Source: a bacterium (GTDB lineage Bacteria; Zhuqueibacterota; Zhuqueibacteria; Residuimicrobiales; Oceaniaggregativiventaceae). From it: a stretch of DNA of 64,000 nt. The translations under genes were made by a program, and so were the position numbers. The notes under the pieces are model-generated. The model had not been told where the DNA came from and ran no database searches. It saw nothing but the letters and a program-made list of their open reading frames with translations. Numbering within the stretch: the first letter of the stretch is position 1; every line of letters begins with the position of its first letter. Shown in pieces: positions 30,216-47,470 of the stretch. The DNA lies in assembly GCA_029565675.1 (NCBI GenBank), contig JAKQNP010000036.1, forward strand, positions 1,449 through 65,448, in the 5' to 3' direction.

Positions 30216-31568
30216 GTGGCTGAAAAACTTAAAATTCTGCTGATCGATGATGACTATGTCTTGCGCTCTGCTTGCGAAGCCTTTCTGAATGACGCGGGTT
30301 ATGCCGTTTACAGCGGCAAAAATCCGGAAGAGGGACTCAAGTTGATGCGCGATATCAATTTCGATGTCTTGATAACCGATTTCCGCATGCCTGGCATGAA
30401 TGGCATCGATTTCATGCGTGCGGTTCAACAATCGAGCCCCCAAACCGACATCATCATGATGACCGGCTATGCGACCATCGAACACGCCGTTGAAGCCATG
30501 CGTCTCGGCGCATTCGATTATCTGCAAAAGCCTTTTGAGCCGGGCCAGTTGTTGGAGACGGTCAACAAACTGGTCGCCCAGCGGCGACAGCTGGGAAAAA
30601 GCGGCGAGAGCGAATTTCGCTTTCAATTCGACGGCCAAAGCGTCAGCATTATCGCCAAGAGCAAAGCCATGCACGACATTTTTCGCCTGGTGGAAAAAGT
30701 TGCTCCCACTGACAGCACGGTTTTAATCCTCGGCGAGAGCGGTACCGGCAAGGAATCGATCGCCAGAGCCTTGCATGCGCTCAGCTTGCGCAGCAAAAAA
30801 CCTTTTTTTACCATGGATTGCGGTTCATTGGTCGAATCCCTGTTCGAAAGCGAACTTTTCGGCCATGTCAAAGGCTCTTTTACCGGCGCCATTGCCACCA
30901 AACATGGCGCTTTTGAGCTTGCCGATGGCGGTACTTTTTTCTTTGACGAAATCGGCAATATTTCCCTCAATGTGCAGGCCAAAATCCTGCGCGCCATCCA
31001 GGAAAAGGAGATCCGCCGGATCGGCAGCACAGAAACCATACCCGTCGATGTCAGGGTTATTGCGGCGACCAATCTTGATTTGCAGCAAGCGGTTGAACGC
31101 GGTGAATTCCGCGAAGATCTCTATTACCGTTTGAGCGTCATTCCCATCCACTTGCCCAGTTTGCGCGAACGAAAAGATGATATTCCGCTTTTGTTGCACT
31201 ATTTCATCCAGAAAAACAATCTGCGCCGCCATCGAAAACCGATCCAGTCTATCGACGACAATGCTCTGGCTGCTCTGTTGCACTATGACTGGCCGGGGAA
31301 TATCCGCGAATTGCAAAACATCGTTGAACGCATCGCCATTATCGAGGACAGCTCGACGATCAGTCTGGCCAGTCTGCCGCCTGCCCTGCAGATCAATGCC
31401 GTTGTGCCGAATGACACCGCGCCGACTTTGTCGATCGCCCAAATTGAAAAACAACATATCGCCAACACCCTGCGCACAACCGGGCACAACATCAGCCAGA
31501 CCGCGCGCTTGCTGGGAATCGACCGCAAAACGCTGTATGACAAGATCCGACGCTACGAACTCGATTGA
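30216..31568 (+). CDS. Sigma54-dependent response regulator (NtrC/AtoC type)
   Basis: REC (LIDDD, TDFRMP, KPF), GESGTGKE, ESELFGHVKGSFTGA, FFDEIG, WPGNIRELQN, C-terminal Fis HTH. Confidence 0.96.
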   Translation: MAEKLKILLIDDDYVLRSACEAFLNDAGYAVYSGKNPEEGLKLMRDINFDVLITDFRMPGMNGIDFMRAVQQSSPQTDIIMMTGYATIEHAVEAMRLGAFDYLQKPFEPGQLLETVNKLVAQRRQLGKSGESEFRFQFDGQSVSIIAKSKAMHDIFRLVEKVAPTDSTVLILGESGTGKESIARALHALSLRSKKPFFTMDCGSLVESLFESELFGHVKGSFTGAIATKHGAFELADGGTFFFDEIGNISLNVQAKILRAIQEKEIRRIGSTETIPVDVRVIAATNLDLQQAVERGEFREDLYYRLSVIPIHLPSLRERKDDIPLLLHYFIQKNNLRRHRKPIQSIDDNALAALLHYDWPGNIRELQNIVERIAIIEDSSTISLASLPPALQINAVVPNDTAPTLSIAQIEKQHIANTLRTTGHNISQTARLLGIDRKTLYDKIRRYELD

Positions 31569-31573
31569 TTCAA

Positions 31574-31643
31574 CTGGGGAATTATTCTACACTTTTTGGC
31601 AAGATTTTTATCTTTAGCGCTGGAGTGGGGAGAAAATCCACAC
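31574..31643 (+). promoter_or_regulatory. Two candidate enhancer (UAS) sites for the sigma54 activator
   Basis: CTGGGGAATTATTCTACAC (31574-31592) and GTGGGGAGAAAATCCACAC (31625-31643), imperfect dyads 51 bp apart. Confidence 0.5.
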
Positions 31644-31848: not shown

Positions 31849-31865
31849 TTGGCATGGTATTTGTA
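31849..31865 (+). promoter_or_regulatory. Sigma54 -24/-12 promoter
   Basis: TTGGCATGGTATTTGTA vs consensus YTGGCACGRNNNTTGCW (GT instead of GC at -12); lies upstream of the hydrogenase operon. Confidence 0.6.
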
Positions 31866-31982
31866 GGTAAATTGAATCTTGACTGTTCTCACATCTGCCT
31901 GACAGTTCGCGCACATTTCTGCAAAGCGCCAAATCGAGCAGGCCAATCTGATTTTGAAATTTTTTGGGAAGTGCATTGGATC

Positions 31983-32390
31983 ATGAATTGTCTGTTTATT
32001 TTGCCTAAACCGCAGGCCTTGCACCAGGAGCTGTTCCGCTCCTTGCGCGAAGATCAAATCCCATTCGAAGTGATCCATGACACCATGGGAGGCATCGAAA
32101 TGACCCGAATGCGTCATTTCGATGTGATCGTTCTGAAAGCCAACAGCGAGCGGTTACAAGTTGAGCAGACTATCAGGTTGCTCAAAGGATGCGATCCGAC
32201 AGCAAAAGTGATCGTGACCACCGCGGTCAATTCGAAATCGCTTGAAGCGAAGATTCGCAAGCAGAATATCTACTATTTCCATCTGGAGTCTTTTGGCACA
32301 CAAGACCTCAGGCTGGCGATTCAGACTGCTTGTCGCAACAGCAACAACAGTGCGTTTTCTGCCGGGTGCTGTGACAAACAAGGGAATTGA
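31983..32390 (+). CDS. Atypical (pseudo-)receiver domain protein
   Basis: CheY-like pattern FDVIVL..IRLLKGCDPTAKVIVTT..IYYFHL.SF; phospho-Asp and conserved Lys positions are replaced. Confidence 0.65.
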   Translation: MNCLFILPKPQALHQELFRSLREDQIPFEVIHDTMGGIEMTRMRHFDVIVLKANSERLQVEQTIRLLKGCDPTAKVIVTTAVNSKSLEAKIRKQNIYYFHLESFGTQDLRLAIQTACRNSNNSAFSAGCCDKQGN

Positions 32391-32533
32391 CAAAAACCGC
32401 GGTTTTTTTGCTGGAACTGCGGCACAGAATTTTCCGCAATTTTGTTATAACGAACAACACAACCTGTTTGCAGCCAGCAGAGTCCTTACGCGGAACAGTG
32501 CTGATATGCAATAATGATGAAAAGAGGAGAACC

Positions 32534-32998
32534 ATGGAGACGAAGACAATTTTGGCAAAATATCCTGAGCACGATCCGTCCGTGCTCATCGCGCTGCTGC
32601 AGGATATTCAAGAAACCTATGGCTATCTGCCGGAAAGTGAATTGCATGCTGTTGCTCAATATACCGATATGCCGGTTAGCCGGGTCTATGGCGTTGCGAC
32701 TTTTTACAACCAGTTTCGTCTCAAACCACTGGGAAAAACCGTCATTCGCGTCTGTCGCGGCACAGCTTGTCATGTCAAAGGATCGCTCGATATTTTGCGC
32801 ACTGTGGAGAGCGAGTTGGGCATTTCAGCCGGCGACACAACCAAGGATATGAAATACACCATTGAAACCGTTGCTTGTATCGGTGCCTGCAGCATTGCCC
32901 CGGTCATCACCATCAGCGGCGAATTCCACGGTGGTCTTACGGTCAAGAGTGTGCAAAAATTGCTGGCGTCCTACCAAAAGAAAGCAGAAGAGGAGTGA
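32534..32998 (+). CDS. hydC: NuoE-like [2Fe-2S] subunit of hydrogenase 1
   Basis: VATFY, CRGTACHVKG, ACIGACSIAP; GAGGAG RBS. Confidence 0.93.
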   Translation: METKTILAKYPEHDPSVLIALLQDIQETYGYLPESELHAVAQYTDMPVSRVYGVATFYNQFRLKPLGKTVIRVCRGTACHVKGSLDILRTVESELGISAGDTTKDMKYTIETVACIGACSIAPVITISGEFHGGLTVKSVQKLLASYQKKAEEE

Positions 32999-33004
32999 TC
33001 GTCG

Positions 33005-34999
33005 ATGAAATCGTTTGCAAAAATATACCATGGCTGTTGGCACACGCCGGACAATCCCTGTCGATTCTTCGTCGATTGCATCAACAATGGTCCGCATTGC
33101 AACCAGTCGGCTGAAGCAAAAGAAGAATTGTCGGCATACAAAAAGGAATTGCTGCTGGAACACCATGCCCAGCCGGTGATTATGGTCGGCATGGGCACTT
33201 GTGGTCTGGCCAACGGCGCCCAGGCGGTCTATGACAAATTGCGCGAAGAACTGACTGCTCGGCAGATCGATGCGCAGCTGTGGTCGACAGGGTGTGTTGG
33301 TTTTTGTTCCATGGAAGTGATCGTCGACATCAAACTGCCAAAGTCAGCGCGAGTTTCATATGCCCGAGTCACTCCGGCTGATGTGCCGGCTATTTTGGAT
33401 GCAGCCTTTATTCAGGACAAGATCGATACTGATCGTCTTCTGGGTGTCTATAAGACCGGCAATGGCAAGTCTGTCAATGGTTTCACAGCCATTGACGATG
33501 TGCCGTTTTTCAAGAAACAGAAAAAACTGGTCCTTGCCAATTGCGGAGTGATCAATCCGGAGAGCATCGATCAGTATTTGGCGCGCGACGGTTATCGCGC
33601 CTTGGCCAAGATTTTGAGCACCATGTCGCCCGTCGACGTGATTGAAGAGATCAAGAAATCGGGATTGCGCGGTCGCGGAGGCGGGGGATTTCCCACCGGC
33701 AAAAAATGGGAGTTCGCTTACAAAGAAAAAAGCGAACAAAAATATCTGATCTGCAATGCAGATGAAGGTGATCCAGGCGCCTTTATGGATCGCGCGGTTT
33801 TGGAAGGCGATCCCCATCGGGTGGTGGAAGGGATGATCATCGCCGCCTATGCAATCGGCGCCAGCCAGGGATATATCTACTGTCGTGCAGAGTATCCTCT
33901 TGCCATACAGCGTCTGGAGAAAACGATCCACGATGCAGAAGCCTATGGGCTTATGGGCGACAACATTCTGGGCAGCGGCTTTTCCTTTCATTTAAAGATC
34001 AAAAAGGGCGCCGGTGCATTTGTTTGCGGTGAGGAAACTGCCCTGATCAATTCGATCGAAGGCAAACGCGGCATGCCCAGGCCCCGACCGCCTTTTCCGG
34101 CGGTGGCCGGTCTTTTCGGTAAACCGACCGTTGTCAACAATGTCGAGACCTTTGCCAATGTCTCGACCATTGTTCTCGGTGGTGCTGATGCTTACGCAGC
34201 AATTGGCACCGCCAATTCAAAAGGGACCAAGATTTTTGCTCTTTCAGGCAAGGTGTGCAACACCGGCCTGGTCGAAGTACCGATGGGCACAACTTTGCGC
34301 GAGGTGATATTCGATATTGGCGGGGGGATTCCGAACGGCAAAGAGTTCAAAGCCGTGCAAATCGGCGGGCCTTCCGGCGGTGCTCTGCCGGAATCGGTAA
34401 TCGATACCGCAGTCGATTACGAAAGCCTCAAATCGATTGGTGCGATGATGGGATCCGGCGGCCTGGTGGTGATGGACGAGACGACTTGCATGGTCGATTT
34501 GGCCAAATATTTTATGACCTTTATCGCCAGCGAATCGTGCGGCAAATGCATCCCGTGTCGAGAAGGAACCAAACGGTTGCTCGAAATACTCGAGCGACTG
34601 ACACAATCGTATCGCAGCGAAAAGTCACCGGAAGATGCGCTGTTGCGTTTCCAGGGCATGGTCTATATGGAGCGTCTGGCTGATGTGATCAAGAATACGT
34701 CGCTGTGCGGCCTTGGTCAGACTGCCGCCAATCCGGTATTGAGCACACTTCGCTATTTTCGCGACGAGTATGAAGCTCATCTGTATGACCGCAAGTGTCC
34801 AGCTGGTCATTGCCGGGAATTGTTAACCTATCATATCGATACCGACAAGTGCACGGGCTGCACCTTATGCGCCCGCAAATGTCCCCAGGGTGCCATAATC
34901 GGTGAAGTGAAAAAAGCGCATTATATCATCGAAGACAAATGTGTTCGCTGTGACATCTGCCGTCAAAACTGCAAATTCGACGCAATTTACGTGGAATAA
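33005..34999 (+). CDS. hydB: NuoF-like NADH/FMN subunit of hydrogenase 1, bifurcating-type signature
   Basis: GRGGGGFPTG, ADEGDPGAFMDR, GAFVCGEE, GGPSGG, ESCGKCIPCREG, C-terminal 2x[4Fe-4S]; N-terminal thioredoxin-like GMGTCG..TGCVGFC. Confidence 0.95.
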   Translation: MKSFAKIYHGCWHTPDNPCRFFVDCINNGPHCNQSAEAKEELSAYKKELLLEHHAQPVIMVGMGTCGLANGAQAVYDKLREELTARQIDAQLWSTGCVGFCSMEVIVDIKLPKSARVSYARVTPADVPAILDAAFIQDKIDTDRLLGVYKTGNGKSVNGFTAIDDVPFFKKQKKLVLANCGVINPESIDQYLARDGYRALAKILSTMSPVDVIEEIKKSGLRGRGGGGFPTGKKWEFAYKEKSEQKYLICNADEGDPGAFMDRAVLEGDPHRVVEGMIIAAYAIGASQGYIYCRAEYPLAIQRLEKTIHDAEAYGLMGDNILGSGFSFHLKIKKGAGAFVCGEETALINSIEGKRGMPRPRPPFPAVAGLFGKPTVVNNVETFANVSTIVLGGADAYAAIGTANSKGTKIFALSGKVCNTGLVEVPMGTTLREVIFDIGGGIPNGKEFKAVQIGGPSGGALPESVIDTAVDYESLKSIGAMMGSGGLVVMDETTCMVDLAKYFMTFIASESCGKCIPCREGTKRLLEILERLTQSYRSEKSPEDALLRFQGMVYMERLADVIKNTSLCGLGQTAANPVLSTLRYFRDEYEAHLYDRKCPAGHCRELLTYHIDTDKCTGCTLCARKCPQGAIIGEVKKAHYIIEDKCVRCDICRQNCKFDAIYVE

Positions 35000-35019
35000 T
35001 CAAGCCAGAGAGGATTCCG

Positions 35020-36732
35020 ATGATTGTAACAATAAATGGCAAAGAGTTATGGGCCAATCCGGGCGATACGATCCTCAATGTCGCTCAGCGCGAAGGAATA
35101 AAAATTCCAACTTTGTGCTATCTCAAGGGTTTTACGCCGACCGGCTCTTGTCGTATCTGTGTGGTTGAAGTTGAAGGCCAACGCAATCTGGTGCCGTCCT
35201 GTGCGCAGCCGGTGACCGAAGGCATGCGGGTGTTGACCAACTCAACCAAAGTGCGGCGGGCGCGAAAGACGATTATCGAGTTGTTGATCGCCAATCATCC
35301 GCAGGACTGCCTGGTGTGCGTGCGCAACGGCAACTGCGAGCTGCAAGACTTGGCTTCTGAATATGGGGTGCGCGATTACCGCTACACCGGTGAACGGCGG
35401 ATGAACAAAAAAGACATCGCCAGCCCGTCAATCGAACGCGATCCCAACAAGTGTATCCTGTGCGGCCGTTGTGTTCGGGTTTGTCACGAGACACAAAATG
35501 TCGGTGCGATTGACCTCGCACGCCGAGGTTTTTCTTCGTATGTCACCCCGGCAATGGACAGCAGTCTGAATACCAGTCCGTGTGTCTATTGCGGACAGTG
35601 CATCACGGTATGTCCAGTGGGTGCGCTGACGGAAAAGAGCCATGAAAAGTTGGTCTGGGAAGCCATCAACGATCCGAATCGCATTGTCATCGCACAAACC
35701 GCACCCTCTGTCCGCGTGGCACTCGGCGAAGAATTTGGCATGGAACCAGGGAGCATTGTGACGGGTAAAATGACCGCGGCATTGCGGCGTATGGGCGTCG
35801 ATATGGTTTTCGATACGAATTTCGGTGCTGACCTGACCATTATGGAAGAAGGTGCGGAGTTGATCAGCCGTTTGAAAAACGGCGGGAAAATTCCACTCTT
35901 GACTTCGTGCAGTCCTGGCTGGGTCAAATACGTCGAGACCTTTTATCCCGATCTCCTGGAACATGTCTCCACCTGCAAATCGCCGCAGGAGATGACCGGT
36001 GCGATTATCAAATCCTTTTATGCACAAAAAATGAATATCGATCCGGCCAAGATTTTTGTGGTCTCGGTGATGCCGTGTACCGCAAAGAAATTTGAATCCC
36101 AGCGCCCGGAACTCGGCTTCAACTATCCAGACGTGGATGCGGTGTTGACAACACGCGAGATGGCACGGATGATCAAGAATTCCGGCATCGACTTTCATAA
36201 ACTTCCGGACGACCATTTTGATGATCCGCTGGGCGAGTCGACCGGTGCCGGCGCCATCTTCGGCGCAACCGGTGGTGTCATGGAAGCTGCCTTGCGCACA
36301 GCCCATTTCTTTTTGACCGGCAAAGAAATGAACGATATCGAGTTTTCGCCGATTCGTGGGCTGGACGGCGTGCGGCGCGCCACGGTCTTTATCAACGACA
36401 TCGAGTTGCACGTAGCGGCTGTAAGCGGATTGAAGAATATCGATTCCTTTTTGGACGATATCCGCAGCGGCAAGTCGGAATTTGCATTCATCGAAGTCAT
36501 GGCCTGCCCCGGCGGCTGCATCAATGGTGGAGGACAGCCATTGCCTGCCGATCCGGAAAAAGTCAAAAAACGCGCTGAGGCGATATACGAAATCGATCGC
36601 GCAACTGCACGGCGGTGTTCGCATCAGAACAGCTCGATTCAGAAGCTCTACCAAGAATTTCTCGGCGAGCCCAACAGCCACAAATCGCACGAGCTGTTGC
36701 ATACACATTTTGTCAGCAGAGAGATCCAATGA
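35020..36732 (+). CDS. hydA: [FeFe]-hydrogenase group A catalytic subunit 1
   Basis: H-cluster motifs TSCSPGW, MPCTAKKFE, EVMACPGGCINGGGQP; N-terminal [2Fe-2S], His-ligated and two [4Fe-4S] motifs. Confidence 0.96.
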   Translation: MIVTINGKELWANPGDTILNVAQREGIKIPTLCYLKGFTPTGSCRICVVEVEGQRNLVPSCAQPVTEGMRVLTNSTKVRRARKTIIELLIANHPQDCLVCVRNGNCELQDLASEYGVRDYRYTGERRMNKKDIASPSIERDPNKCILCGRCVRVCHETQNVGAIDLARRGFSSYVTPAMDSSLNTSPCVYCGQCITVCPVGALTEKSHEKLVWEAINDPNRIVIAQTAPSVRVALGEEFGMEPGSIVTGKMTAALRRMGVDMVFDTNFGADLTIMEEGAELISRLKNGGKIPLLTSCSPGWVKYVETFYPDLLEHVSTCKSPQEMTGAIIKSFYAQKMNIDPAKIFVVSVMPCTAKKFESQRPELGFNYPDVDAVLTTREMARMIKNSGIDFHKLPDDHFDDPLGESTGAGAIFGATGGVMEAALRTAHFFLTGKEMNDIEFSPIRGLDGVRRATVFINDIELHVAAVSGLKNIDSFLDDIRSGKSEFAFIEVMACPGGCINGGGQPLPADPEKVKKRAEAIYEIDRATARRCSHQNSSIQKLYQEFLGEPNSHKSHELLHTHFVSREIQ

Positions 36733-38762: not shown

Positions 38763-38788
38763 CTGCAATCCCTTGAAAGGAATCCTTG

Positions 38789-39187: not shown

Positions 39188-39193
39188 AACATC

Positions 39194-39592: not shown

Positions 39593-41070
39593 GAATCGAC
39601 AAGGCCAAAATTCTTGTTGTCGACGATGAAATGGGAATGCGCGAAGGTATCAAGCGCCTTTTAGAGATCGAAAACCATCAAGTCGATACCGCGGAAACCG
39701 GTGCCCAGGGCATTTCACTGGGCACGGCATTTGAATACGATCTCTATCTTTTGGATTTGAAAATTGGCGATTGCGACGGTACCGAGGTTTTGCGCCAGAT
39801 CAAGGCTCGCTATCCCGAAGCGATTTGCGTCATTGTCACTGCCTATGCCTCTATCGATACGGCGGTTGAGACCACGCGCTTGGGTGCTTATCACTATATC
39901 GCCAAACCGTTTTCACCAGAAGAGCTCTATCACCTGGTCGGCCGGGCGTTGGAGCGACGCTGGTATATTCTGGAAGCACGGCGATTGCGCGAAGAACAAG
40001 AGCGACGGCTCATGGAAGTGGCGCACGAAAAATCGCGTATCCGCACCATCATCAACACGATCGACGACGGAATTGTGGTCGTCAATCAAGAAAAACAAAT
40101 CGTTCTCTGGAATCCGCGCTTTGTGAAATTGCTGGAAATCGACCGTAAAATCAATGTCGGCGATCTTGTTTTTGACATCCTGCCCGAAAACCTGCACGAA
40201 CAATTCAATCAAATGTTTGCCGGGCAAACGGAATTAAAAGCGATCAAACAAGAGGTCGTAATTCATGCGCCGGCCAAACTGGTGATCATGGTGAACACCA
40301 CGCCGATCATCAACACGTCCGGCGAAATGCTGGGTGTGGTTTCGGTTCTACGCGATATATCAGAACTGAAGCAACTCGATCTGCTCAAATCACAATTCAT
40401 CAACATGGCCGCACATGAACTCAAAGCTCCTTTGAGCGCCATCAAAGGCTACGTCGAGCTCTTGATCGATCGGACCCTCGGCGAAACCCTCGAAAGCTAT
40501 AAACAACAGCTCGATCGCTCGCGCGAACGCATCGATGCGCTTGTCAGTTTGATCAATGATTTGCTCAACATTTCGCGCATGGAAGCCGGAACGATCCGCC
40601 GGGATATCGAGCCGATCGATTTGAGCAACCTGTTGACCCATACTGTGGAGTTTTTCCACACCGATATGGACAAACGATCCCTGACTCTCGATTCATCTAT
40701 CGAACCAAATCTGGTTATGGATGCGGATCGCGAAGAGATCCAACGCGTTTTTACCAATCTCATCTCCAATGCCATCAAATACAACAAAGAAAACGGCAAA
40801 ATTACGGTCAACGCACAGCGTGATAATGGGTATATCCGGGTGCAAATCGCCGATACCGGCATCGGGCTTAAACCGGAAGAAAAAGAACACCTATTTGAAG
40901 AATTCTTCCGCGCCAAAAATCCGCTGACCCGCAACATCACCGGCACGGGTCTGGGATTGACCATTTTGAAAAAAATCGTCGATTCTTACGCCGGACGGAT
41001 CGAGGTTGAAAGCGAATTCGAATCCGGTTCAACTTTTACAGTTATTTTGCCGACAAACCAAATTAATTAA
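39589..41070 (+). CDS. Hybrid REC-PAS-HisKA-HATPase sensor kinase
   Basis: N-terminal REC (VVDDE, LLDLK, AKPF), PAS (IDDGIVVVN..WNP..LRDIS), AAHELKAPL, NLISNAIKY, DTGIG, GTGLGL. Confidence 0.93.
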   Translation: MRIDKAKILVVDDEMGMREGIKRLLEIENHQVDTAETGAQGISLGTAFEYDLYLLDLKIGDCDGTEVLRQIKARYPEAICVIVTAYASIDTAVETTRLGAYHYIAKPFSPEELYHLVGRALERRWYILEARRLREEQERRLMEVAHEKSRIRTIINTIDDGIVVVNQEKQIVLWNPRFVKLLEIDRKINVGDLVFDILPENLHEQFNQMFAGQTELKAIKQEVVIHAPAKLVIMVNTTPIINTSGEMLGVVSVLRDISELKQLDLLKSQFINMAAHELKAPLSAIKGYVELLIDRTLGETLESYKQQLDRSRERIDALVSLINDLLNISRMEAGTIRRDIEPIDLSNLLTHTVEFFHTDMDKRSLTLDSSIEPNLVMDADREEIQRVFTNLISNAIKYNKENGKITVNAQRDNGYIRVQIADTGIGLKPEEKEHLFEEFFRAKNPLTRNITGTGLGLTILKKIVDSYAGRIEVESEFESGSTFTVILPTNQIN

Positions 41071-41165
41071 ATCGATTCGCTTCAAGCGCTTCTCCTCTGA
41101 CACTGCCGCTCACTCGGAAAATACCTTGATTTTTAAGTTAAAAACCCTTAATTATATAGTTATTT

Positions 41166-41196
41166 TCACTGCTGTCCGGTTACCGGACAGCAGTGA
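41166..41196. repeat. Perfect 15-bp-arm palindrome
   Basis: TCACTGCTGTCCGGT-T-ACCGGACAGCAGTGA. Confidence 0.75.
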
Positions 41197-41430
41197 GTTG
41201 TTTTATCGCGCGTGCCTGGATTCGGTGTAATTGGATTTGCTGTTCACACAGAATTTGCGGTTTCCCCCAGATTTTGCGTGATCCTGACCGGTTCTGGTTT
41301 CGGGGAGCAAGAATCAGAATAATCCAGCCCATCAGAAGATATTTTTGCAGTGATCGAGTCGACCGATGTGGGTAAAGATAAGGACTGTTGTCGGTGAACC
41401 CAGGTCGAGTGGGTCAAAAGAGGAGAGGGT

Positions 41431-41775
41431 ATGCGCCTGCTGCAAATCCTACAAAATGCCGGTTTATCGTTATTGACGCAGCCGTTTTCTGGAGATCCTG
41501 ACGTCACTCTGGGGTGCTGTTCGGATGTACTCAGCGATGTGATGGCTCGTGCAGAAAAAGGCAGTTTATGGATTACCCATCAGACCAACGAGAATGTGTT
41601 GGCGATCGCCTTTTTTAAAGAATTGGCTGGTGTGGTTTTTCCAGATCGTTTGCAGCCCACTCCAGACATCATCGCCAAGGCAAATGAAAAAAAGATCGTT
41701 TTGCTCTCCAGCACAGAACCTGCTTTCCAAATTGCCGGGCTCTTGTATGCGCAAGGCCTGCGAGGAAAAAAATAG
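41431..41775 (+). CDS. DRTGG-domain protein
   Basis: CSDVLSDVMA, LWITHQTNENVLAIA pattern; GAGGAG RBS. Confidence 0.8.
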   Translation: MRLLQILQNAGLSLLTQPFSGDPDVTLGCCSDVLSDVMARAEKGSLWITHQTNENVLAIAFFKELAGVVFPDRLQPTPDIIAKANEKKIVLLSSTEPAFQIAGLLYAQGLRGKK

Positions 41776-42558
41776 ATGCTGAGGTGGTACACAGCTGATT
41801 TGCATGTTCACACTGTCTTGTCTGCCTGTGCCGAACTATCGATGGGACCGAAGGATATCGTCCTTGCCGCAATCGACCATGGCCTTGACCTGATCGCCAT
41901 CACCGATCACAACTCGATTGAAAATGTCCATGCCGTGCTCACGGCTGCCAAAGGAACCACCCTCAGCGTTATCCCGGGGATGGAAGTCTCAACCGCCGAT
42001 AAAATTCATCTGGTCGTTCTGTTTCCAGATCTGACCGCTGCTGCAGAGTTTCAAAATTTTGTCTATTCGCGATTGCCTGTCGGCCACTATGACGAGGAGC
42101 TATACGGACCGCAGATTGTCTGCGATCAACACGATCATATCGTCGACACCAATCACAAAATGCTCATACTCGGCATACAAGCTTCTCTTGATGAAGTCGC
42201 CGACCAGGCAGTTGCCTGCGGCGGATTGATCTATCCCGCTCATATCGATCGTTCAGCTTACAGCATTTTAAACAAATACCCATCGATCCCGGCCGAGCTG
42301 CCGTTTGTCGCAGTGGAACTTTCTGCACATGGCAGTCCTGCACAGATGATTGCTCAACATCCTGAGGTCGCCAACTATCCGATGGTTTTTGCCTCGGATG
42401 CTCACGATATTTCGGCAATCGGCTCTACTGTTACGCATTTCTTGATGAGATCACCCACTTTCTCTGAGATCAAGAAGGCTTTTTATGCTGAACAGGGGCG
42501 CAGGGTTTCGATCGAACCGGTGCGATCACAACAAGCCTTTCATGACCCTGTCCCATGA
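41776..42558 (+). CDS. PHP-domain phosphoesterase
   Basis: DLHVHT, ITDHN, GMEV, PAHIDR, SDAH. Confidence 0.9.
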   Translation: MLRWYTADLHVHTVLSACAELSMGPKDIVLAAIDHGLDLIAITDHNSIENVHAVLTAAKGTTLSVIPGMEVSTADKIHLVVLFPDLTAAAEFQNFVYSRLPVGHYDEELYGPQIVCDQHDHIVDTNHKMLILGIQASLDEVADQAVACGGLIYPAHIDRSAYSILNKYPSIPAELPFVAVELSAHGSPAQMIAQHPEVANYPMVFASDAHDISAIGSTVTHFLMRSPTFSEIKKAFYAEQGRRVSIEPVRSQQAFHDPVP

Positions 42559-42565
42559 GGAAAAC

Positions 42566-43114
42566 GTGCGCGAATTGTCGCTGCATATTTTGGATATTGT
42601 AACCAATGCCATCGAAGCGGAGGCCAACCGCGTCATCATCGGCATCCGCGAATCTCAGGCTGACGATACCTTGATCATCCGGGTGCGCGATAACGGACGC
42701 GGCATGCCTGAAGAGTTGGTCAAAAAGGTGTCCGATCCCTTTGTGACGACGCGAACCACCCGCGCGGTCGGGATGGGAATTTCGCTGGCCAAGCATGCCA
42801 CATTGGCGGCCAAAGGCGCCTTTGATCTCAAATCAACTCTGGGCAAAGGCACGGAGTTGTGGATGCGCTTTCGCCTGAACTGTTTGAACCGGGTGCCGTT
42901 GGGAGACATGGCCGAAACTGTGGTCAATTTGATCATCGGCACTCCTGATTTGCATCTGGCCTATCATCATCGCACCGATAAGGGCGATTTTCTCTTCGAC
43001 TCGTATTGGATTTTGGCACGCATGGCAGAAAACAATTGGACGCTTTATCAAACAATGGCACCCGCATCTGAATATATTCGGCAAAATTTGGTAAAAATCG
43101 ATTCGGTCGGTTGA
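42566..43114 (+). CDS. Stand-alone HATPase_c (GHKL) ATP-binding protein
   Basis: RELSLHILDIVTNAIEA, DNGRGM, DPFVTTR, GMGISL, GKGT; GTG start after GAGG. Confidence 0.85.
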   Translation: MRELSLHILDIVTNAIEAEANRVIIGIRESQADDTLIIRVRDNGRGMPEELVKKVSDPFVTTRTTRAVGMGISLAKHATLAAKGAFDLKSTLGKGTELWMRFRLNCLNRVPLGDMAETVVNLIIGTPDLHLAYHHRTDKGDFLFDSYWILARMAENNWTLYQTMAPASEYIRQNLVKIDSVG

Positions 43115-43213
43115 AAATTTCTCCCAAACGTCAACATTGTTATCTGATACAATCGACGGGGTGATGCCCTGCGGCATAATACCCCAAACTGCGAAACCTC
43201 AGGAGGAAATGAA

Positions 43214-43576
43214 GTGAAAACATTAGCGGATTTGCGCGCGATTAAAGAAAAGGCCAAACAGGAATTAGCCTCCCGTGAACAAACTGCCAAATATCGGTTG
43301 GTGGTTGCCATGGGAACCTGTGGCATTGCTGCTGGAGCGCGAACGGTCATGACCGCCATCATCGATGAGATCAGCAAGCGCGGCATTACCGACACGATCG
43401 TCACGCAAACCGGTTGCCTTGGTTATTGCGATCAAGAGCCCCTGGTGCAAGTGATTCAGCCGGATAAAAGCGTGATCACCTATGGCAAAATCACGCCTGA
43501 ACTCGCCCGGCGGATTGTTGCTGAACATATTGGAAAAGGTAACGTTATCAGCGAACAGGTTTTCATGCAGAGCTAA
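43214..43576 (+). CDS. Thioredoxin-like [2Fe-2S] ferredoxin subunit (HndB/HydD-like)
   Basis: AMGTCGIAAGA, TGCLGYCDQEP; AGGAGG RBS. Confidence 0.9.
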   Translation: MKTLADLRAIKEKAKQELASREQTAKYRLVVAMGTCGIAAGARTVMTAIIDEISKRGITDTIVTQTGCLGYCDQEPLVQVIQPDKSVITYGKITPELARRIVAEHIGKGNVISEQVFMQS

Positions 43577-43606: not shown

Positions 43607-44083
43607 ATGCCCGATCTGAGCCGTATCGATGAAATTGTCGCGAGCTATCAATCGACCAAAAGTCCATTGATATACATCTTAAAAGATGTGCAAAAAGAGT
43701 TCGGATTTCTTTCCGAATCGGTCTTAACCCAGGTTGCCCGCGTGACACGCATCCCCTTGAGCGATATTTATGGGGTCGCCACCTTTTACAGCTTGTTCAC
43801 CACCAAACCCAAAGGACAGCATATTGTGCGCTGCTGCAACAACGCGCCTTGTTGGGTTAATGGATCCGAAGAAGTGCTGCAAAAAATCAAGGAATATCTG
43901 GAAATCGAGACCGGCGAGACCACTGGGGATGGAACTTTTACGCTTGAATTCACCAGTTGCCTGGGCCTCTGTGCGGTTGCGCCGGTTATGATGATCGATG
44001 ACCAGGTGTTTGGCAATTTGACTCCGGAAAAAGCGGTTGCGATTCTGCGCGATTATAAAACGAAAGGATCGGCAAATGCATAG
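43607..44083 (+). CDS. hydC: NuoE-like [2Fe-2S] subunit of hydrogenase 2
   Basis: VATFYS, CNNAPCWVNG, SCLGLCAVAP. Confidence 0.93.
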   Translation: MPDLSRIDEIVASYQSTKSPLIYILKDVQKEFGFLSESVLTQVARVTRIPLSDIYGVATFYSLFTTKPKGQHIVRCCNNAPCWVNGSEEVLQKIKEYLEIETGETTGDGTFTLEFTSCLGLCAVAPVMMIDDQVFGNLTPEKAVAILRDYKTKGSANA

Positions 44084-45677
44084 GATGCATGTAATTATAG
44101 CAATGGATCCGCATACCATTGCACAAGGTGCGCGATCGATTAAAGATGCGTTGGTCAAAAATCTCGAACTGGCCGGTCTGAGCAACGAAATCAAGGTTGT
44201 CGAAACCGGAAGTTTGGGCATCTACAACAAAGGCGTGGTGCTGGTGGTTTTCCCTGATGGTATCTATTACACCGGTGTTAAAATCGCCGATCTCTCCGAA
44301 ATTATTTCTGAACATCTGGTAAAAGGCCGGGTGGTAGAGCGGCTGCACTATCGCGATATCCCTGAAGAGAGTCGCGCTGAGGAAAAAGCTCCACGTTTCG
44401 GCAAGCAATTGCGCGTGGTTCTGAAGAATGCCGGAATTATTGATCCGGAGAGCATCGAAGAATACATTGCACAGGATGGCTATGAGGCATATGGCAAAGC
44501 GCTGACCGAAATGAAACCTGCCGACGTGCTGCAAACGGTAAAAGATTCAGGCATGTTGGGCCGTGGCGGCGCCTTTTTTCCCACAGGTGTAAAATGGGGA
44601 TTTGCAGCTGCTGAAAAGGCAAAAGAGAAGTATATTATCTGCAACGCAGACGAAGGAGAACCGGGTACATTTAAGGATCGCTTGATTCTCGAAGGCGATC
44701 CGCATGCGGTTCTGGAAGGAATGTGTCTGGCCGGGTATGCGGTTGGTGCGACCATGGGGTATGTTTATATCCGCGGCGAATATTACATGTCGATTGCGCG
44801 CGTTCGGCGCGCCATCGAACAAGCGCGTAAAAACGGACTGCTGGGCAAAAATATTTTCGGCAGCGGCTTTAGCTTTGACATCGAAGTACGAGAGGGCGCG
44901 GGCGCCTATATTTGCGGTGAAGAGACCGCTTTAATCGAATCGATCGAGGGCAAACGCGGCGAACCGCGCGACAAACCGCCTTTTCCGCCATCGGTTGGTC
45001 TTTGGGGCAAACCAACGATCGTCAACAATGTGGAAACTTTGGCGACCGTCCCGCAGATACTGCTCAAAGGAGCGGCGTGGTACAAATCTCTTGGAACTGA
45101 ATCAACCCCGGGAACCAAAGTGTTTACTCTGGTCGGCAACATCAACAATCCGGGCCTGATCGAAGTACCGCTGGGTATCACTCTGCGCGAAATCATCTAT
45201 GATATCGGTCACGGCATTCCCAACGGCCGCGGTTTCAAGCTGGCGCAGTTGGGCGGTACCACAGGCGGCATTCTGACCAGCGAACATCTCGATCTGCCTT
45301 TTGATCTTGTCAATCTTCGATCGATCGATGCCGGTCTGGGTTCGGGGGCATTGCTGGTGGTCGACGATACGCATAATGTCGTCGAACTGGTGCAAAATTT
45401 TGCCGAATTTTTCAATCACGAATCGTGCGGCAAGTGCACCATGTGTCGCGAGGGCACGGGGCGACTCGTCGAACTGCTGCACAAACTCACATCAGGCTGT
45501 GGAGCCGAAAGCGACATCGCTTTGATCGAACGGCTGGCCAGCGCCATGATGAAAAGCGCTTTTTGCGGTTTGGGACAAGCCGCACCGGTGCCGATTCTCG
45601 GTTGCCTTCGCTATTTCCGAGATGAGTTTACCGCTTTGGCACAGCAAAAACGCCAACAGATACCGGCAAACGCTTGA
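44076..45677 (+). CDS. hydB: NuoF-like subunit of hydrogenase 2, non-bifurcating-type signature
   Basis: GRGGAFFPTG, ADEGEPGTFKDR, GAYICGEE, GGTTGG, ESCGKCTMCREG; no C-terminal ferredoxin domain. Confidence 0.93.
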   Translation: MHRMHVIIAMDPHTIAQGARSIKDALVKNLELAGLSNEIKVVETGSLGIYNKGVVLVVFPDGIYYTGVKIADLSEIISEHLVKGRVVERLHYRDIPEESRAEEKAPRFGKQLRVVLKNAGIIDPESIEEYIAQDGYEAYGKALTEMKPADVLQTVKDSGMLGRGGAFFPTGVKWGFAAAEKAKEKYIICNADEGEPGTFKDRLILEGDPHAVLEGMCLAGYAVGATMGYVYIRGEYYMSIARVRRAIEQARKNGLLGKNIFGSGFSFDIEVREGAGAYICGEETALIESIEGKRGEPRDKPPFPPSVGLWGKPTIVNNVETLATVPQILLKGAAWYKSLGTESTPGTKVFTLVGNINNPGLIEVPLGITLREIIYDIGHGIPNGRGFKLAQLGGTTGGILTSEHLDLPFDLVNLRSIDAGLGSGALLVVDDTHNVVELVQNFAEFFNHESCGKCTMCREGTGRLVELLHKLTSGCGAESDIALIERLASAMMKSAFCGLGQAAPVPILGCLRYFRDEFTALAQQKRQQIPANA

Positions 45678-45707
45678 TCTCGCGAATGACCGGAGTCAGT
45701 GACTGTC

Positions 45708-47465
45708 ATGGAGGAAGATAACGTGAAATCGATTAATGTCATGATAGATGGAACAAAAGTCACCGTTCCTGAGGGGACCACAGTTCTGGATGCGGCCAAA
45801 AAGGCCAACATTAAAATTCCGGTGCTGTGCTATCATCCCGATTTGCCGCCGGTTGCTGCCTGCCGCCTCTGCGTGGTGGAGGTCAAAGGCGATCGCTTGT
45901 TGCGCACCGCTTGCAGCTGGCAATGCCGCGAAGGCATGGAAATTTCCACCAAAAGCGCCCTGGTGCGCGAATCCCGCAAGGTGGCGCTCGAATTGCTGCT
46001 TTCCCGTCACCCTATGAAATGCACCGAATGTGTGCGCAACGGCAACTGCGAATTGCAGGATGTGGCCAATTTGCTGGGCATTCGCGAGAATCCTTTTGAA
46101 TACAACGAGAGAAAAGGCGAATTGGATCTTTCCAGCAAATCGATCGTGCGCGACCCGGCCAAATGTATTCTATGCCGGCGTTGCATTCGCACGTGCGAAC
46201 TGGTACAAAGCGTCAGTGCCATCGGTCTGGAAGGCAGAGGTTATGACGTGTGGGTGGACACTCCATTTGGCAAGGGAATTGCCGATGGACCATGCGTGGC
46301 ATGCGGCCAATGCATCGACCGCTGTCCGGTCGGTGCCCTCTATGAAACCAGCCATGTGGATCGCGTCTGGCGTGCTCTGGACAACCCGCAGAAGCACGTG
46401 GTCATACAGACTGCCCCGGCTGTGCGCGTCGCCGTCAGTGAAGAGTTCGGCCTCGAACCAGGCGCATTGACAACCAAACAGATGGTGGCCGGTTTGCGAC
46501 GGCTCGGATTCGACCGCGTTTTTGATACCAATTTTACGGCAGATTTGACGATCATCGAAGAAGGACATGAATTGATCGGCAGAATTAAAAAAGGCGGCAA
46601 ATTTCCGATGTTGACCTCTTGCAGCCCGGGATGGATCAATTTTATCGAGCACTTTTTCCCACAGCTGCTGCCCCATGTCAGTTCATGCAAATCGCCGCAG
46701 CAGATGTTCGGAGCTTTGGCCAAAACCTATTACGCACAAAAATTCGGTATCGATCCCAAAAACATTTTTAGCGTGTCGATGATGCCATGCACTGCCAAAA
46801 AATATGAAGCGGATCGTCCGGAAATGAATGCCAGTGGTTATCAAGACGTCGATGCCGTTCTGACAACCCGGGAGGTGGCGGTCATGATGAAACAAGTCGG
46901 TGTCGATCTGCCCAACATGCATGAAGAAGAATATGATGATCCGCTGGGTGTGTCAACCGGTGCCGCGGTCATTTTCGGCAATACCGGTGGGGTCATGGAA
47001 GCGGCGCTGCGCACGGTTTACGAAGTGGTGACCGAGAAAAAACTGGAGGATCTGGAGATCAATGCTGTCAGAGGAATGGAAGGCATCCGCGAGGCGGAAA
47101 TCGATCTCAATGGTCTGAAAGTCAAAGCAGCGGTGGCAAACGGCCTCTACAACGCCCGCCAGCTTTTGGACAAGATTGTTGACGGCACTGCGGATTACCA
47201 TTTTATCGAAATTATGGCTTGCCCCGGTGGCTGTATCGGCGGCGGCGGCCAGCCGATCCCGACATCAAAGGAAATCCGCGCAAAACGGATCGAAGCGATC
47301 TATGAAGAAGATCGCGGTTACGAATTGCGCAAATCTCATGAAAATCCAGCTGTTCAAAAGCTGTACAAGGAGTTTCTGGGTGAACCCAATGGGCACAAGG
47401 CACACGAACTCTTGCACACCCATTACACACCCAAGTCGCAATACGAATCAGATACTGCTGCTTGA
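45708..47465 (+). CDS. hydA: [FeFe]-hydrogenase group A catalytic subunit 2
   Basis: TSCSPGW, MPCTAKKYE, EIMACPGGCIGGGGQP; full N-terminal FeS set; exact start uncertain (45699/45708/45723). Confidence 0.96.
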   Translation: MEEDNVKSINVMIDGTKVTVPEGTTVLDAAKKANIKIPVLCYHPDLPPVAACRLCVVEVKGDRLLRTACSWQCREGMEISTKSALVRESRKVALELLLSRHPMKCTECVRNGNCELQDVANLLGIRENPFEYNERKGELDLSSKSIVRDPAKCILCRRCIRTCELVQSVSAIGLEGRGYDVWVDTPFGKGIADGPCVACGQCIDRCPVGALYETSHVDRVWRALDNPQKHVVIQTAPAVRVAVSEEFGLEPGALTTKQMVAGLRRLGFDRVFDTNFTADLTIIEEGHELIGRIKKGGKFPMLTSCSPGWINFIEHFFPQLLPHVSSCKSPQQMFGALAKTYYAQKFGIDPKNIFSVSMMPCTAKKYEADRPEMNASGYQDVDAVLTTREVAVMMKQVGVDLPNMHEEEYDDPLGVSTGAAVIFGNTGGVMEAALRTVYEVVTEKKLEDLEINAVRGMEGIREAEIDLNGLKVKAAVANGLYNARQLLDKIVDGTADYHFIEIMACPGGCIGGGGQPIPTSKEIRAKRIEAIYEEDRGYELRKSHENPAVQKLYKEFLGEPNGHKAHELLHTHYTPKSQYESDTAA

Positions 47466-47470
47466 TCTCG

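What the first reader, a model, noticed from the sequence alone, without database searches (positions are those of the whole stretch)
30216..47465. Candidate complete H2-sensing phosphorelay positioned between two functionally different [FeFe]-hydrogenases
Seen, all on one strand: sigma54 activator, enhancer-like sites and a -24/-12 promoter, pseudo-receiver, hydCBA-1, sensory hydrogenase-kinase, two stand-alone receivers, REC-PAS-kinase, DRTGG-PHP-HATPase, ferredoxin, hydCBA-2, terminator. Known: group C [FeFe]-hydrogenases are proposed H2 sensors, but their output pathways are, to my knowledge, largely undemonstrated. Inference: H2 read by the H-cluster sets kinase activity, passes through the receivers and hybrid kinase to the NtrC-type activator, and switches expression between a bifurcating and a non-bifurcating enzyme. 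This is my best candidate for an undescribed system in the window.
Basis: partly seen in the sequence, partly recalled or inferred. Interest (0 to 1): 0.82.

Follow-up and report, generated by a model that had tools for sequence, protein, structure and literature searches.

The report
Sigma-54-controlled hydrogenase island with hydrogen-sensor kinase
An uncultured anaerobe encodes two different hydrogen-producing enzymes around a hydrogenase-like sensor fused to a signalling kinase, and here, unusually for this widespread but untested sensor family, a DNA-binding activator with its promoter and binding sites lies alongside, so the path from sensor to gene can be tested.

Summary
The gene list is real at the stated coordinates. 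Corrections: DRTGG, PHP and HATPase are three genes; a strong terminator (41165-41197) splits the island into two transcription units here; no Hpt domain exists, so it is not a canonical phosphorelay.

Comparison with 18 genomes of the same order supports the promoter. A -24/-12 element lies 51-60 nt before the pseudo-receiver gene in 14 of 15 loci. A palindromic enhancer site lies 120-136 nt further up in 11 of 15. The NtrC-type activator is adjacent in 13 of 16.

HydB-1 meets the published bifurcating criteria; HydB-2 meets the non-bifurcating ones.

The sensor-kinase fusion is a catalogued, untested class (HydDB C1 concept; 'BfuT' 2024), and this scan has met it on other DNA. In 80 distant metagenome loci the conserved core is sensor-kinase, receiver and receiver-kinase. 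The sigma-54 activator is lineage-specific (3 of 24).

Family resemblance suggests branched wiring: the sensor kinase serves the activator and the second kinase's receiver, and the second kinase serves the two single receivers. It does not favour the linear relay. A switch between the two enzymes is not supported: one sigma-54 promoter, and no gap between the gene sets in 7 of 14 relatives.

HydE, HydF and HydG were not found in this genome or in a closed relative.

The parts
30216..31568 (+). NtrC-type sigma-54 activator (receiver, AAA+ with GSFTGA, HTH_8)
   Evidence: Pfam. The best NCBIfam resemblance is ZraR/AtoC, below their cut-offs. Adjacent in 13 of 16 order loci.
31574..31643 (.). Two palindromic enhancer-like sites (31574-31592 with 3 mismatches, 31625-31643 with 1 mismatch to GTGTGGA-N5-TCCACAC)
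   Evidence: A site within 2 mismatches lies 120-136 nt before the promoter in 11 of 15 relatives. Only two sites with 1 mismatch or fewer exist in the 4.4-Mb genome, and both are in this locus.
31850..31864 (+). -24/-12 (sigma-54) promoter, TGGCAT-N5-TTGT
   Evidence: It is the only exact TGGCAY-N5-TTGW match in the window. The same element lies 51-60 nt before the pseudo-receiver gene in 14 of 15 relatives, and the 15th has a one-letter variant.
31983..32390 (+). Pseudo-receiver (receiver fold; no acidic pair, no conserved Lys; Lys at the phospho-acceptor place in this genome)
   Evidence: No Pfam hit. Conserved in 15 of 16 order loci. Alignment. hhalign to receivers gives probability 67%, E 5e-5. 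AF2 pLDDT 77 with (beta-alpha)5 topology. The listed top Foldseek PDB hits are almost all receiver or receiver-like (CheY-fold) domains, TMq 0.64-0.77.
32534..36732 (+). hydC1-hydB1-hydA1, bifurcating-type HydABC
   Evidence: Pfam. HydB1 has PGAFMDR, GAGAF, GGPSG, a C-terminal 2x[4Fe-4S] domain and N-terminal Cys. HydA1 scores over the cut-off of NF040763. Best PDB matches are T. kivui and A. woodii HydA1.
36729..38762 (+). Sensor-type [FeFe]-hydrogenase domain fused to a histidine kinase (HydS-HK). Its start overlaps the hydA1 stop (ATGA).
   Evidence: Pfam. Motifs are SSCP, GPC and LFCEGC, with the four H-cluster Cys, Cx2Cx4Cx16C, the H-box His and the G boxes invariant in 12 diverse homologues. 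There is no PAS domain.
38786..39592 (+). Two single-domain receivers (REC1 38786-39187, REC2 39194-39592)
   Evidence: Pfam. The acceptor Asp and the Lys-Pro are invariant. They are PhoB/YycF-like and each other's closest relative.
39589..41070 (+). Receiver-PAS-histidine kinase (HK2)
   Evidence: Pfam. The transmitter is PnpS/PhoR/WalK-like and its receiver AtoC/NtrX/NtrC-like. A second kinase lies within 3 kb of the sensor in 49 of 55 distant loci.
40643..40661 (.). Third copy of the enhancer palindrome (1 mismatch), inside the HK2 gene and 770 bp before the second gene set
   Evidence: Not found within 2 mismatches at this place in the related loci. Its role is unknown.
41165..41205 (+). 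Intrinsic-terminator-like hairpin between the two gene sets
41431..43576 (+). DRTGG protein, PHP phosphoesterase, stand-alone HATPase and thioredoxin-like [2Fe-2S] protein
   Evidence: Pfam, NCBIfam. The order is conserved in relatives. The same trio precedes the bifurcating set in L019, L021, L027 and L069.
43607..47465 (+). hydC2-hydB2-hydA2, non-bifurcating-type (NADH-only) HydABC
   Evidence: Pfam. HydB2 has PGTFKDR, GAGAY and GGTTG, no C-terminal Fer4 domain, and has lost the N-terminal Cys. HydA2 scores over the cut-off of NF040763.
47470..47511 (+). Terminator hairpin

Best explanation
This is a sigma-54-controlled [FeFe]-hydrogenase island of an uncultured bacterium of candidate phylum KSB1.

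Shown from sequence and comparison:
- An NtrC-type activator gene is followed by palindromic enhancer sites and a -24/-12 promoter.
- That promoter heads an operon for a pseudo-receiver, a bifurcating-type HydCBA, a sensor-type hydrogenase domain fused to a histidine kinase, two single receivers and a receiver-PAS-kinase.
- A non-bifurcating-type HydCBA set with four accessory genes follows.

Inferred:
- The degenerate H-cluster domain reacts with H2. The reducing equivalents pass through its FeS clusters to the C-terminal four-cysteine cluster, which sits directly on the kinase's signalling helix and sets autophosphorylation.
- The kinase (AtoS/ZraS-like) serves the two NtrC-class receivers: the activator and the N-terminal receiver of the second kinase.
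- The second kinase (PhoR/WalK-like) serves the two PhoB/YycF-like single receivers, which act as a side branch or phosphate sink.
- The phosphorylated activator switches on the operon, its own sensor included. Expression of the bifurcating enzyme therefore follows H2 pressure.

The sign of the response is unknown. So is whether the second hydrogenase set is under the same control.
For: - Domains.
- Sensor hallmarks. The proton-relay Cys is replaced (SSCP). The Met353 and Met497 equivalents are Gly and Leu. The four H-cluster Cys and the Cx2Cx4Cx16C motif are invariant in 12 homologues of 43-58% identity. These are the traits named for sensory enzymes in PMC8163306 (passages read).
- Promoter and enhancer. 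TGGCAY-N5-TTGW lies 51-60 nt before the first gene in 14 of 15 order loci. The palindrome within 2 mismatches lies 120-136 nt upstream in 11 of 15. The activator is adjacent in 13 of 16. rpoN is present. Only two sites with 1 mismatch or fewer exist in the genome, both here.
- Wiring by best family resemblance, all below family cut-offs. Sensor kinase: AtoS 234 bits, ZraS 207 bits. Activator: ZraR 410, AtoC 409. HK2: PnpS 276, PhoR 237, WalK 223. REC1 and REC2: YycF/PhoB. HK2 receiver: AtoC 78, NtrX 75, and AtoC is also the best match in the distant L035 and L064.
- The activator's receiver and the HK2 receiver are each other's closest (77 bits). REC1 and REC2 are each other's closest (95 bits).
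- Core conserved in 80 distant loci: a receiver lies next to the sensor in 60 of 72, and a second kinase within 3 kb in 49 of 55.
- Contigs of four RNA libraries from four studies lie on both gene sets with no or few differences. For example, 31905-32919 bridges the pseudo-receiver and hydC1.
Against: - No biochemical result exists for any kinase-fused member, and H2 dependence is assumed.
- HydE, HydF and HydG were not found in this genome (95.1% complete), nor in a closed, a 3-contig and a 5-contig genome of the order. How, or whether, the [2Fe] subcluster is made is therefore open.
- The activator is missing beside the module in most other lineages (3 of 24). Rex stands upstream instead in L086, L064 and Caldithrix (PMC5317091, passages). 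The module can therefore work without this activator.
- The resemblance-based wiring uses scores far below family cut-offs and is not a specificity test.
- The -12 element is TTGA/TTGT, not the textbook TTGC.
- RNA-library contigs cannot show starts, strand or level, and may hold DNA.
Confidence: 0.45

Rival explanations
1. Redox or turnover sensor, not an H2 sensor. The hydrogenase-like domain is a fourth subunit of HydABC-1 ('T' subunit), or a ferredoxin/NADH-pool reporter. Its FeS clusters report electron pressure to the kinase, possibly without a [2Fe] subcluster.
For: - The sensor's start overlaps the hydA1 stop.
- hydA lies directly upstream in 35 of 58 distant loci.
- PMC11406978 treats it as subunit BfuT (sections read).
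- HydEFG were not found in this genome or in a closed relative.
- Rex, an NADH sensor, accompanies the module elsewhere.
Against: - All four H-cluster cysteines and the Lys of the MPCxxK motif are invariant in 12 diverse homologues. That is hard to explain if no H-cluster is bound.
- 23 of 58 distant loci have no hydA directly upstream, so the sensor is not an obligate subunit.
Confidence: 0.22
2. Unlinked regulators. The NtrC-type activator answers to another, unidentified kinase or signal. The sensor-kinase, receiver and receiver-kinase module has a non-transcriptional output, for example single receivers that bind an enzyme or another target.
For: - The module recurs without any DNA-binding regulator within 8-10 kb in 21 of 24 distant loci (Pfam of the flanks of L035 and L044, and of L086 and L064).
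- In L078, L084 and L090 the activator has a further kinase gene next to it.
Against: - In this order the activator has no kinase gene of its own beside it, and it sits directly before the operon it apparently drives.
- The sensor kinase and the activator resemble matching families, AtoS/ZraS with AtoC/ZraR.
Confidence: 0.18
3. One reading: sensor kinase, then single receivers, then hybrid kinase, then activator, toggling expression between the bifurcating and the non-bifurcating enzyme.
For: - The gene order matches that path.
- The sensor module lies between a bifurcating-type and a non-bifurcating-type HydB in this order and in a second lineage of 45-48% identity. All 17 of 17 downstream HydB are of the non-bifurcating type.
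- In this genome a terminator separates the sets, and a further enhancer-like site lies before the second set.
Against: - There is no Hpt domain.
- The single receivers resemble partners of the second kinase, not of the first.
- No second -24/-12 element was found by the exact pattern.
- The gap between the sets is 0-49 bp in 7 of 14 relatives, which points to co-transcription.
- RNA-library contigs lie on both sets in the same samples.
Confidence: 0.1

Closest known systems
'BfuT' with a histidine-kinase domain in sub-type V BfuTABC clusters (Hydrogenedentota, Caldithrix abyssi DSM 13497, some Bacteroidota), mSystems 2024, PMC11406978 (sections 7 and passages of 8-9 read)
   Same: A group C hydrogenase-like protein with a His-kinase domain is encoded directly beside bifurcating-type hydCBA. 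The same paper defines a non-bifurcating sub-type II whose HydB lacks the B3, B4 and B5 clusters, as HydB-2 does here.
   Different: The main text holds no occurrence of 'response regulator' or 'sigma'. It describes no receivers, second kinase, pseudo-receiver, activator or promoter, and no adjacency of the two sub-types. Its supplements could not be seen.
HydDB [FeFe] group C1, 'histidine kinase-linked (putative)' (PMC5037454, table read)
   Same: The concept is the same: an [FeFe] hydrogenase homologue that may sense H2 and signal through a histidine kinase.
   Different: HydDB classification could not be run here. PMC11406978 reports that kinase-domain forms hit a C3 reference, so the subgroup label is uncertain.
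Thermotoga maritima HydS (group C, M2f) and T. mathranii HydS (group D, M2e), PMC8163306 (passages read)
   Same: N-terminal 2x[4Fe-4S], a short H-domain without the proton-relay Cys, Met353 replaced by Gly as in TmHydS, Met497 replaced by Leu as in TamHydS, and the C-terminal Cx2Cx4Cx16C motif.
   Different: There is no PAS domain. The four-Cys module is followed at once by HisKA and HATPase.
[quoted passage not shown]
   Same: It works like this: an H2-sensing hydrogenase homologue, a histidine kinase and a sigma-54 activator control hydrogenase operons.
   Different: The metal centre and protein family are unrelated. There sensor and kinase are separate proteins. The extra receivers, second kinase and pseudo-receiver have no counterpart that I know of.
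[quoted passage not shown]
   Same: HydB-2 shares the Thr/Lys pair in PGTFKDR and the Tyr at the Nqo1 Tyr180 place. It lacks GGPSG and the extra FeS domains.
   Different: HydB-2 keeps a cysteine-less N-terminal thioredoxin-like domain. It is accompanied by a separate [2Fe-2S] protein and the DRTGG/PHP/HATPase genes. Its activity is untested.

Membership tests
Putative sensory (group C-like) [FeFe]-hydrogenase | H-domain with the four H-cluster cysteine ligands | tested here: met
   C145, C193, C300 and C303 are invariant in 12 homologues. Fe_hyd_lg_C scores 180 bits.
Putative sensory (group C-like) [FeFe]-hydrogenase | Proton-relay Cys (CpI C299) not conserved; Met353 and Met497 replaced | tested here: met
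   SSCP aligns with TSCCP of CpI through hydA1. GPC replaces MPC, and LFCEGC replaces the ExMxCxxGC motif. The criterion comes from PMC8163306.
Putative sensory (group C-like) [FeFe]-hydrogenase | N-terminal 2x[4Fe-4S] and C-terminal Cx2Cx4Cx16C | tested here: met
   Fer4 and FeS (PF04060) hits. Eight plus four Cys are invariant.
Putative sensory (group C-like) [FeFe]-hydrogenase | PAS domain after the H-domain (M2f) | tested here: not met
   There is no PAS hit in the fusion protein. HisKA follows directly.
Putative sensory (group C-like) [FeFe]-hydrogenase | Binds an H-cluster and reacts slowly with H2 | not testable with these tools
   This needs the protein. HydEFG were not found in the genome.
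HydDB subgroup C1 or C3 | Nearest-neighbour classification by HydDB | not tested
   No HydDB tool was on hand.
HisKA-type histidine kinase (both kinases) | H-box His, N box, G1 and G2 boxes | tested here: met
   HisKA and HATPase_c hits. H459, N568, N572, D602/G604/G606 and G626-G632 are invariant.
NtrC-type sigma-54 enhancer-binding response regulator | Receiver with acceptor Asp, AAA+ domain with a GAFTGA-type loop, HTH_8 | tested here: met
   The loop reads GSFTGA.
NtrC-type sigma-54 enhancer-binding response regulator | Sigma-54 in the genome and a -24/-12 target promoter with upstream sites | tested here: met
   rpoN. The promoter and palindromes are conserved. The -12 element reads TTGA/TTGT, not TTGC.
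Canonical His-Asp-His-Asp phosphorelay | An Hpt or Spo0B-type phosphotransfer domain between two receivers | tested here: not met
   No Hpt family was hit in any ORF of 30216-47465. The only related hit is a weak HPTransfase match inside the HATPase region.
Electron-bifurcating HydABC (group A3) | HydB with Ala/Met (PGAFMDR), Phe (GAGAF), GGPSG and extra FeS domains (Losey et al. 2020) | tested here: met
   Met for HydB-1. HydB-2 fails all four criteria and instead fits the non-bifurcating pattern.
Receiver domain (for the small ORF 31983-32390) | (beta-alpha)5 fold | tested here: met
Receiver domain (for the small ORF 31983-32390) | Acidic pair, acceptor Asp and conserved Lys | tested here: not met
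   No acidic pair, and His in place of Lys, in all 9 sequences. At the acceptor place, 6 sequences have Asp, 2 have Asn and the window has Lys.

The most novel reading that the evidence does not exclude
The island is a hydrogen-pressure 'gearbox'. A kinase-fused [FeFe] sensor, wired to a sigma-54 activator and to a second kinase branch, sets the balance between a confurcating (NADH plus ferredoxin) and an NADH-only hydrogenase. Placing the sensor module between these two enzyme types has been kept or re-invented in at least two distant lineages. On top of this, these bacteria build working H-clusters without HydE, HydF and HydG, as was proposed for archaea.
Probability: 0.15. Interest if true: 0.8.

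Novelty: new variant of a known kind. Interest (0 to 1): 0.5.

Why it matters
No output pathway of any [FeFe] 'sensory' hydrogenase has been demonstrated. Most copies of the kinase-fused family have no DNA-binding partner nearby: 21 of 24 distant loci lack one.

In this order every element of a testable chain is encoded in one place:
- the sensor kinase;
- five candidate receivers;
- a sigma-54 activator;
- its palindromic sites;
- a defined promoter.

This allows phosphotransfer profiling, footprinting and in vitro transcription with recombinant parts, even though the organism is uncultured. The recurring position of the sensor between a bifurcating-type and an NADH-only-type hydrogenase suggests how fermenters and syntrophs might match H2 production to H2 pressure in digesters and sediments.

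Tried and rejected
- A loose -24/-12 pattern count in the window is at chance (85 matches against 88.9 expected). The single match was not used as evidence; phylogenetic footprinting replaced it.
- An exact-pattern search gave no second sigma-54 promoter before the second gene set. Extra matches in L096, L105 and L108 lie far from the intergenic regions.
- A weight-matrix scan for weaker promoters was sent as a script.
- L009, L010 and L011 match only the hydrogenase half or the kinase half. I left them out of all counts.
- L001-L007 are largely the same contigs as L095, L098, L099, L100, L102 and L109, judging by equal contig lengths. They are not counted twice.
- Two rows with an internal stop in my coordinates (L097 and L005) were dropped from alignments A3 and A4.
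- The literature search for DRTGG/PHP with hydrogenase gave nothing relevant (listing only). The function of that trio stays unknown.
- RNA-library contigs are used only for presence and bridging. Depth, uncovered bins and contig ends are not used.
- Complex prediction was not used. Kinase-receiver pairs tend to pass by likeness to solved structures, so it would not discriminate among the five receivers.
- A mirror-tree or covariation test of partner choice was considered and rejected, because all the genes are inherited together.
- The position '367' of T. maritima HydB in PMC7311640 did not map by offset onto a Phe/Tyr site in my alignments. I used the paper's own description (the Nqo1 tyrosine) instead, which maps to Tyr278 of HydB-2 by the 2fug offset.


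Full report
**Observation.**
- NtrC-type activator, 30216-31568.
- A small ORF without a Pfam hit, 31983-32390.
- hydC1, hydB1 and hydA1, 32534-36732.
- A protein with 2x Fer4, Fe_hyd_lg_C, the FeS four-Cys module, HisKA and HATPase_c, 36729-38762.
- Two single receivers, 38786-39592.
- REC-PAS-HisKA-HATPase, 39589-41070.
- DRTGG, PHP and HATPase proteins, as three ORFs, 41431-43114.
- A thioredoxin-like [2Fe-2S] protein, 43214-43576.
- hydC2, hydB2 and hydA2, 43607-47465.
- A terminator hairpin, 47470-47511.

Start and stop codons overlap at hydA1/sensor and at REC2/HK2 (coordinates). No ORF has an Hpt domain. The lineage is candidate phylum KSB1, judged by the names of the closest records. 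The genome has rpoN. It has four Fe_hyd_lg_C genes, three of them in this window.

**Promoter and enhancer.** The single match TGGCAT-N5-TTGT at 31850-31864 means little alone, because a loose pattern is at chance in the window (85 against 88.9 expected). I therefore fetched the orthologous region from 18 genomes of the same order.
- 16 of the 18 loci reach upstream of hydC1.
- 15 of those 16 have the small ORF, and 13 of 16 have the activator just before it.
- TGGCAY-N5-TTGW lies 51-60 nt before the small ORF in 14 of 15. The same-genus genome has TGGTAC-N5-TTGT at that place.
- In the window the distance is 133 nt.
- A palindrome near GTGTGGA-N5-TCCACAC (2 mismatches or fewer) lies 120-136 nt before the promoter in 11 of 15. 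The other four show weaker palindromes by eye.
- The window has two copies, at 31574 and 31625.
- In the whole 4.4-Mb genome only two sites have 1 mismatch or fewer. Both are in this locus: 31625, and 40643 inside the HK2 gene.

This is good comparative evidence for a sigma-54 promoter with activator sites.

**The small ORF.** It is conserved at 35-73% identity.
- Its profile finds mostly receiver domains in the PDB, weakly (best E 6e-4).
- hhalign to the single receivers gives probability 67%, E 5e-5.
- The AlphaFold model (pLDDT 77, pTM 0.72) has five beta-alpha units.
- The listed top Foldseek hits are almost all receiver or receiver-like (CheY-fold) domains, with TMq 0.64-0.77.
- All nine sequences lack the acidic pair and have His where receivers have Lys.
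- At the acceptor place, six have Asp, two have Asn and the window has Lys.

'Pseudo-receiver' is a fair name.

**The sensor kinase.** Aligned with hydA1, hydA2 and relatives, the H-domain reads SSCP, GPC and LFCEGC.
- By the CpI numbering visible, the proton-relay Cys299 is Ser, Met353 is Gly and Met497 is Leu.
- These are the traits described for sensory enzymes (PMC8163306, passages).
- In 12 homologues of 43-58% identity the following are invariant: eight N-terminal Cys, the four H-cluster Cys, the Cx2Cx4Cx16C motif, the phospho-His and the ATP-lid glycines.
- There is no PAS domain. The four-Cys module leads straight into the kinase helix.

**How common the family is, and what travels with it.**
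- The best 120 database hits all have the fused architecture. Their source names span KSB1, Calditrichia, Bacteroidota, Ignavibacteria and Spirochaetes.
- In 121 genomes sampled from the phylum, 87 match at E 1e-50 or better, but many match only the kinase half. By my count from that table, about 45 carry a full-length copy, often two or three. That tally includes one unpublished genome, G096, with a kinase-half match only; nothing here rests on it.
- In 80 metagenome loci of 42-60% identity, I labelled genes by tblastn with the window's proteins. A receiver follows the sensor within 300 bp in 60 of 72. A second kinase lies within 3 kb in 49 of 55. hydA lies directly upstream in 35 of 58.
- A sigma-54 activator lies within the locus in only 3 of the 24 loci that have 8 kb or more on both sides.
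- In L086 and L064, Rex stands before hydC, as reported for Caldithrix (PMC5317091).

The conserved core is therefore sensor kinase, receiver and receiver-kinase. The activator is a feature of this order.

**Wiring.** There is no Hpt domain, so the system is not a canonical relay. The best NCBIfam resemblances, all far below family cut-offs, form two matched sets.
- Set 1: the sensor kinase resembles AtoS/ZraS. The activator resembles ZraR/AtoC. The N-terminal receiver of HK2 resembles AtoC/NtrX/NtrC, and AtoC is also the best match in the distant L035 and L064.
- Set 2: the HK2 transmitter resembles PnpS/PhoR/WalK, and REC1 and REC2 resemble YycF/PhoB.
- By BLASTP, the activator's receiver and the HK2 receiver are each other's closest, and so are REC1 and REC2.

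This is resemblance, not a test.

**The two hydrogenases.** Both HydA score above the cut-off of NF040763, 'NADH-dependent [FeFe] hydrogenase, group A6'.
- HydB-1 has PGAFMDR, GAGAF, GGPSG, an N-terminal Cys-bearing domain and a C-terminal 2x[4Fe-4S] domain.
- HydB-2 has PGTFKDR, GAGAY and GGTTG, no Fer4 domain, and an N-terminal domain that has lost its Cys.
- These are the criteria of Losey et al. 2020 (PMC7311640, passages). They also match 'sub-type II' of PMC11406978.
- Across the loci, every HydB directly upstream of a sensor that my motif search caught has the Ala/Met and Phe signature (34 rows, 32 of them with GGPSG).
- All 17 of 17 HydB downstream of a sensor have PGTFKDR and no GGPSG.
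- These 17 come from this order and from a second lineage of 45-48% sensor identity, with the order hydCBA, sensor, REC, REC-PAS-HK, REC, hydCBA.

The position 'between two different hydrogenases' therefore recurs.

**The 'switch' idea.** I found only one conserved sigma-54 promoter.
- The gap between HK2 and the DRTGG gene is 0-49 bp in 7 of 14 relatives and 471-1331 bp in the other 7. In L097 a MurF-like gene fills it.
- The window has 360 bp with the terminator.
- Contigs from four RNA libraries of four studies, labelled sludge or digester metagenomes, lie on both sets with no or few differences. Bins with any depth, of 30: X1 29, X2 28, X4 22, X5 16.
- One such contig bridges 31905-32919 and another 43080-44342.

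This shows presence in RNA libraries, not regulation. Co-expression is at least as likely as a switch.

**Literature.** Searches found the HydDB class 'C1 histidine kinase-linked (putative)' and the BfuT description. They found no paper that links an [FeFe] sensor to a sigma-54 activator, to a defined promoter or to the receiver set. Supplements were closed and could hold gene-neighbourhood tables that show more. This scan has met the kinase-fused family on other DNA many times. Those notes agree that it is catalogued and untested, usually with no DNA-binding output.

**Caveat for any H2-sensing model.** HydF, HydG and HydE were not found in four genomes of the order: this one (95.1% complete), a one-contig genome, a three-contig genome and a five-contig genome. 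All four encode these hydrogenases. A sister genus has hydE, hydF and hydG together. Only 3 of 21 relatives have HydG above the cut-off. Maturase-less [FeFe] genomes have been reported for archaea and some eukaryotes (PMC11216029, passages).

**Verdict.** The sensor class is known. The sigma-54 output, the pseudo-receiver and the recurrent position between bifurcating and non-bifurcating sets make this a new variant worth a bench test.

Noticed in passing
whole genome G000; relatives G015, G104, G115, G004: HydE, HydF and HydG were not found in this genome (95.1% complete), nor in a closed one-contig, a three-contig and a five-contig genome of the same order that carry the same hydrogenase island. 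A sister genus (G004) has hydE-hydF-hydG together on C97:27675-33153. Only 3 of 21 relatives have HydG over the cut-off.
   Followed up: partly
window 35020-36732 and 45699-47465: Both catalytic HydA read TSCSPGW, that is, Ser at the CpI Cys300 place. A. woodii HydA1 (7q4v) reads the same, while T. kivui HydA1 and CpI read TSCCP. PMC11406978 notes Cys or Ser at this fifth position of motif P1.
   Followed up: partly
window 40643-40661: A near-perfect copy of the enhancer palindrome lies inside the HK2 coding region, 770 bp before the second gene set. It is one of only two sites with 1 mismatch or fewer in the 4.4-Mb genome. It was not found in the related loci within 2 mismatches.
   Followed up: partly
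L094, L097, L098, L101 between enhancer site and promoter: An A/T-rich block resembling CTCTCAAAAATGATAG recurs just downstream of the palindrome in several relatives. It may be a DNA-bending (IHF-like) site.
   Followed up: no
L002/L095, L003/L099, L006/L102, L096, L106: Some genomes of the order carry an extra receiver plus a REC-PAS-kinase pair (38% identical to HK2) between the pseudo-receiver and hydC1.
   Followed up: no
G004:C65:55805-60255; G014:C2:83947-88406; G016:C3:64839-69357; G118:C687:3752-8252: Tandem pairs of full-length sensor-kinase paralogues occur (44-47% identical to the window's sensor). Many genomes of the phylum have two or three copies.
   Followed up: no
window 47578-49663: An acetate/butyrate-kinase-like gene and a phosphate acyltransferase (PTA_PTB) gene follow the island. 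The kinase gene is kept downstream in L002, L003, L006 and L007.
   Followed up: no
window 32397-32414: A short palindrome followed by a T run lies right after the pseudo-receiver stop, before hydC1 (fold -17.3 kcal/mol, z -2.4). RNA-library contigs run across it.
   Followed up: partly
window 47828-48010: RNA-library contigs of X1 and X4 skip 181 bases inside the kinase-like gene. The shorter side of the joint is only 21 letters, so it may come from another strain or organism.
   Followed up: no
L019, L021, L027, L069: In another lineage the DRTGG-PHP-HATPase trio and a second, kinase-less HydS-like gene precede the bifurcating hydCBA that carries the sensor kinase.
   Followed up: no
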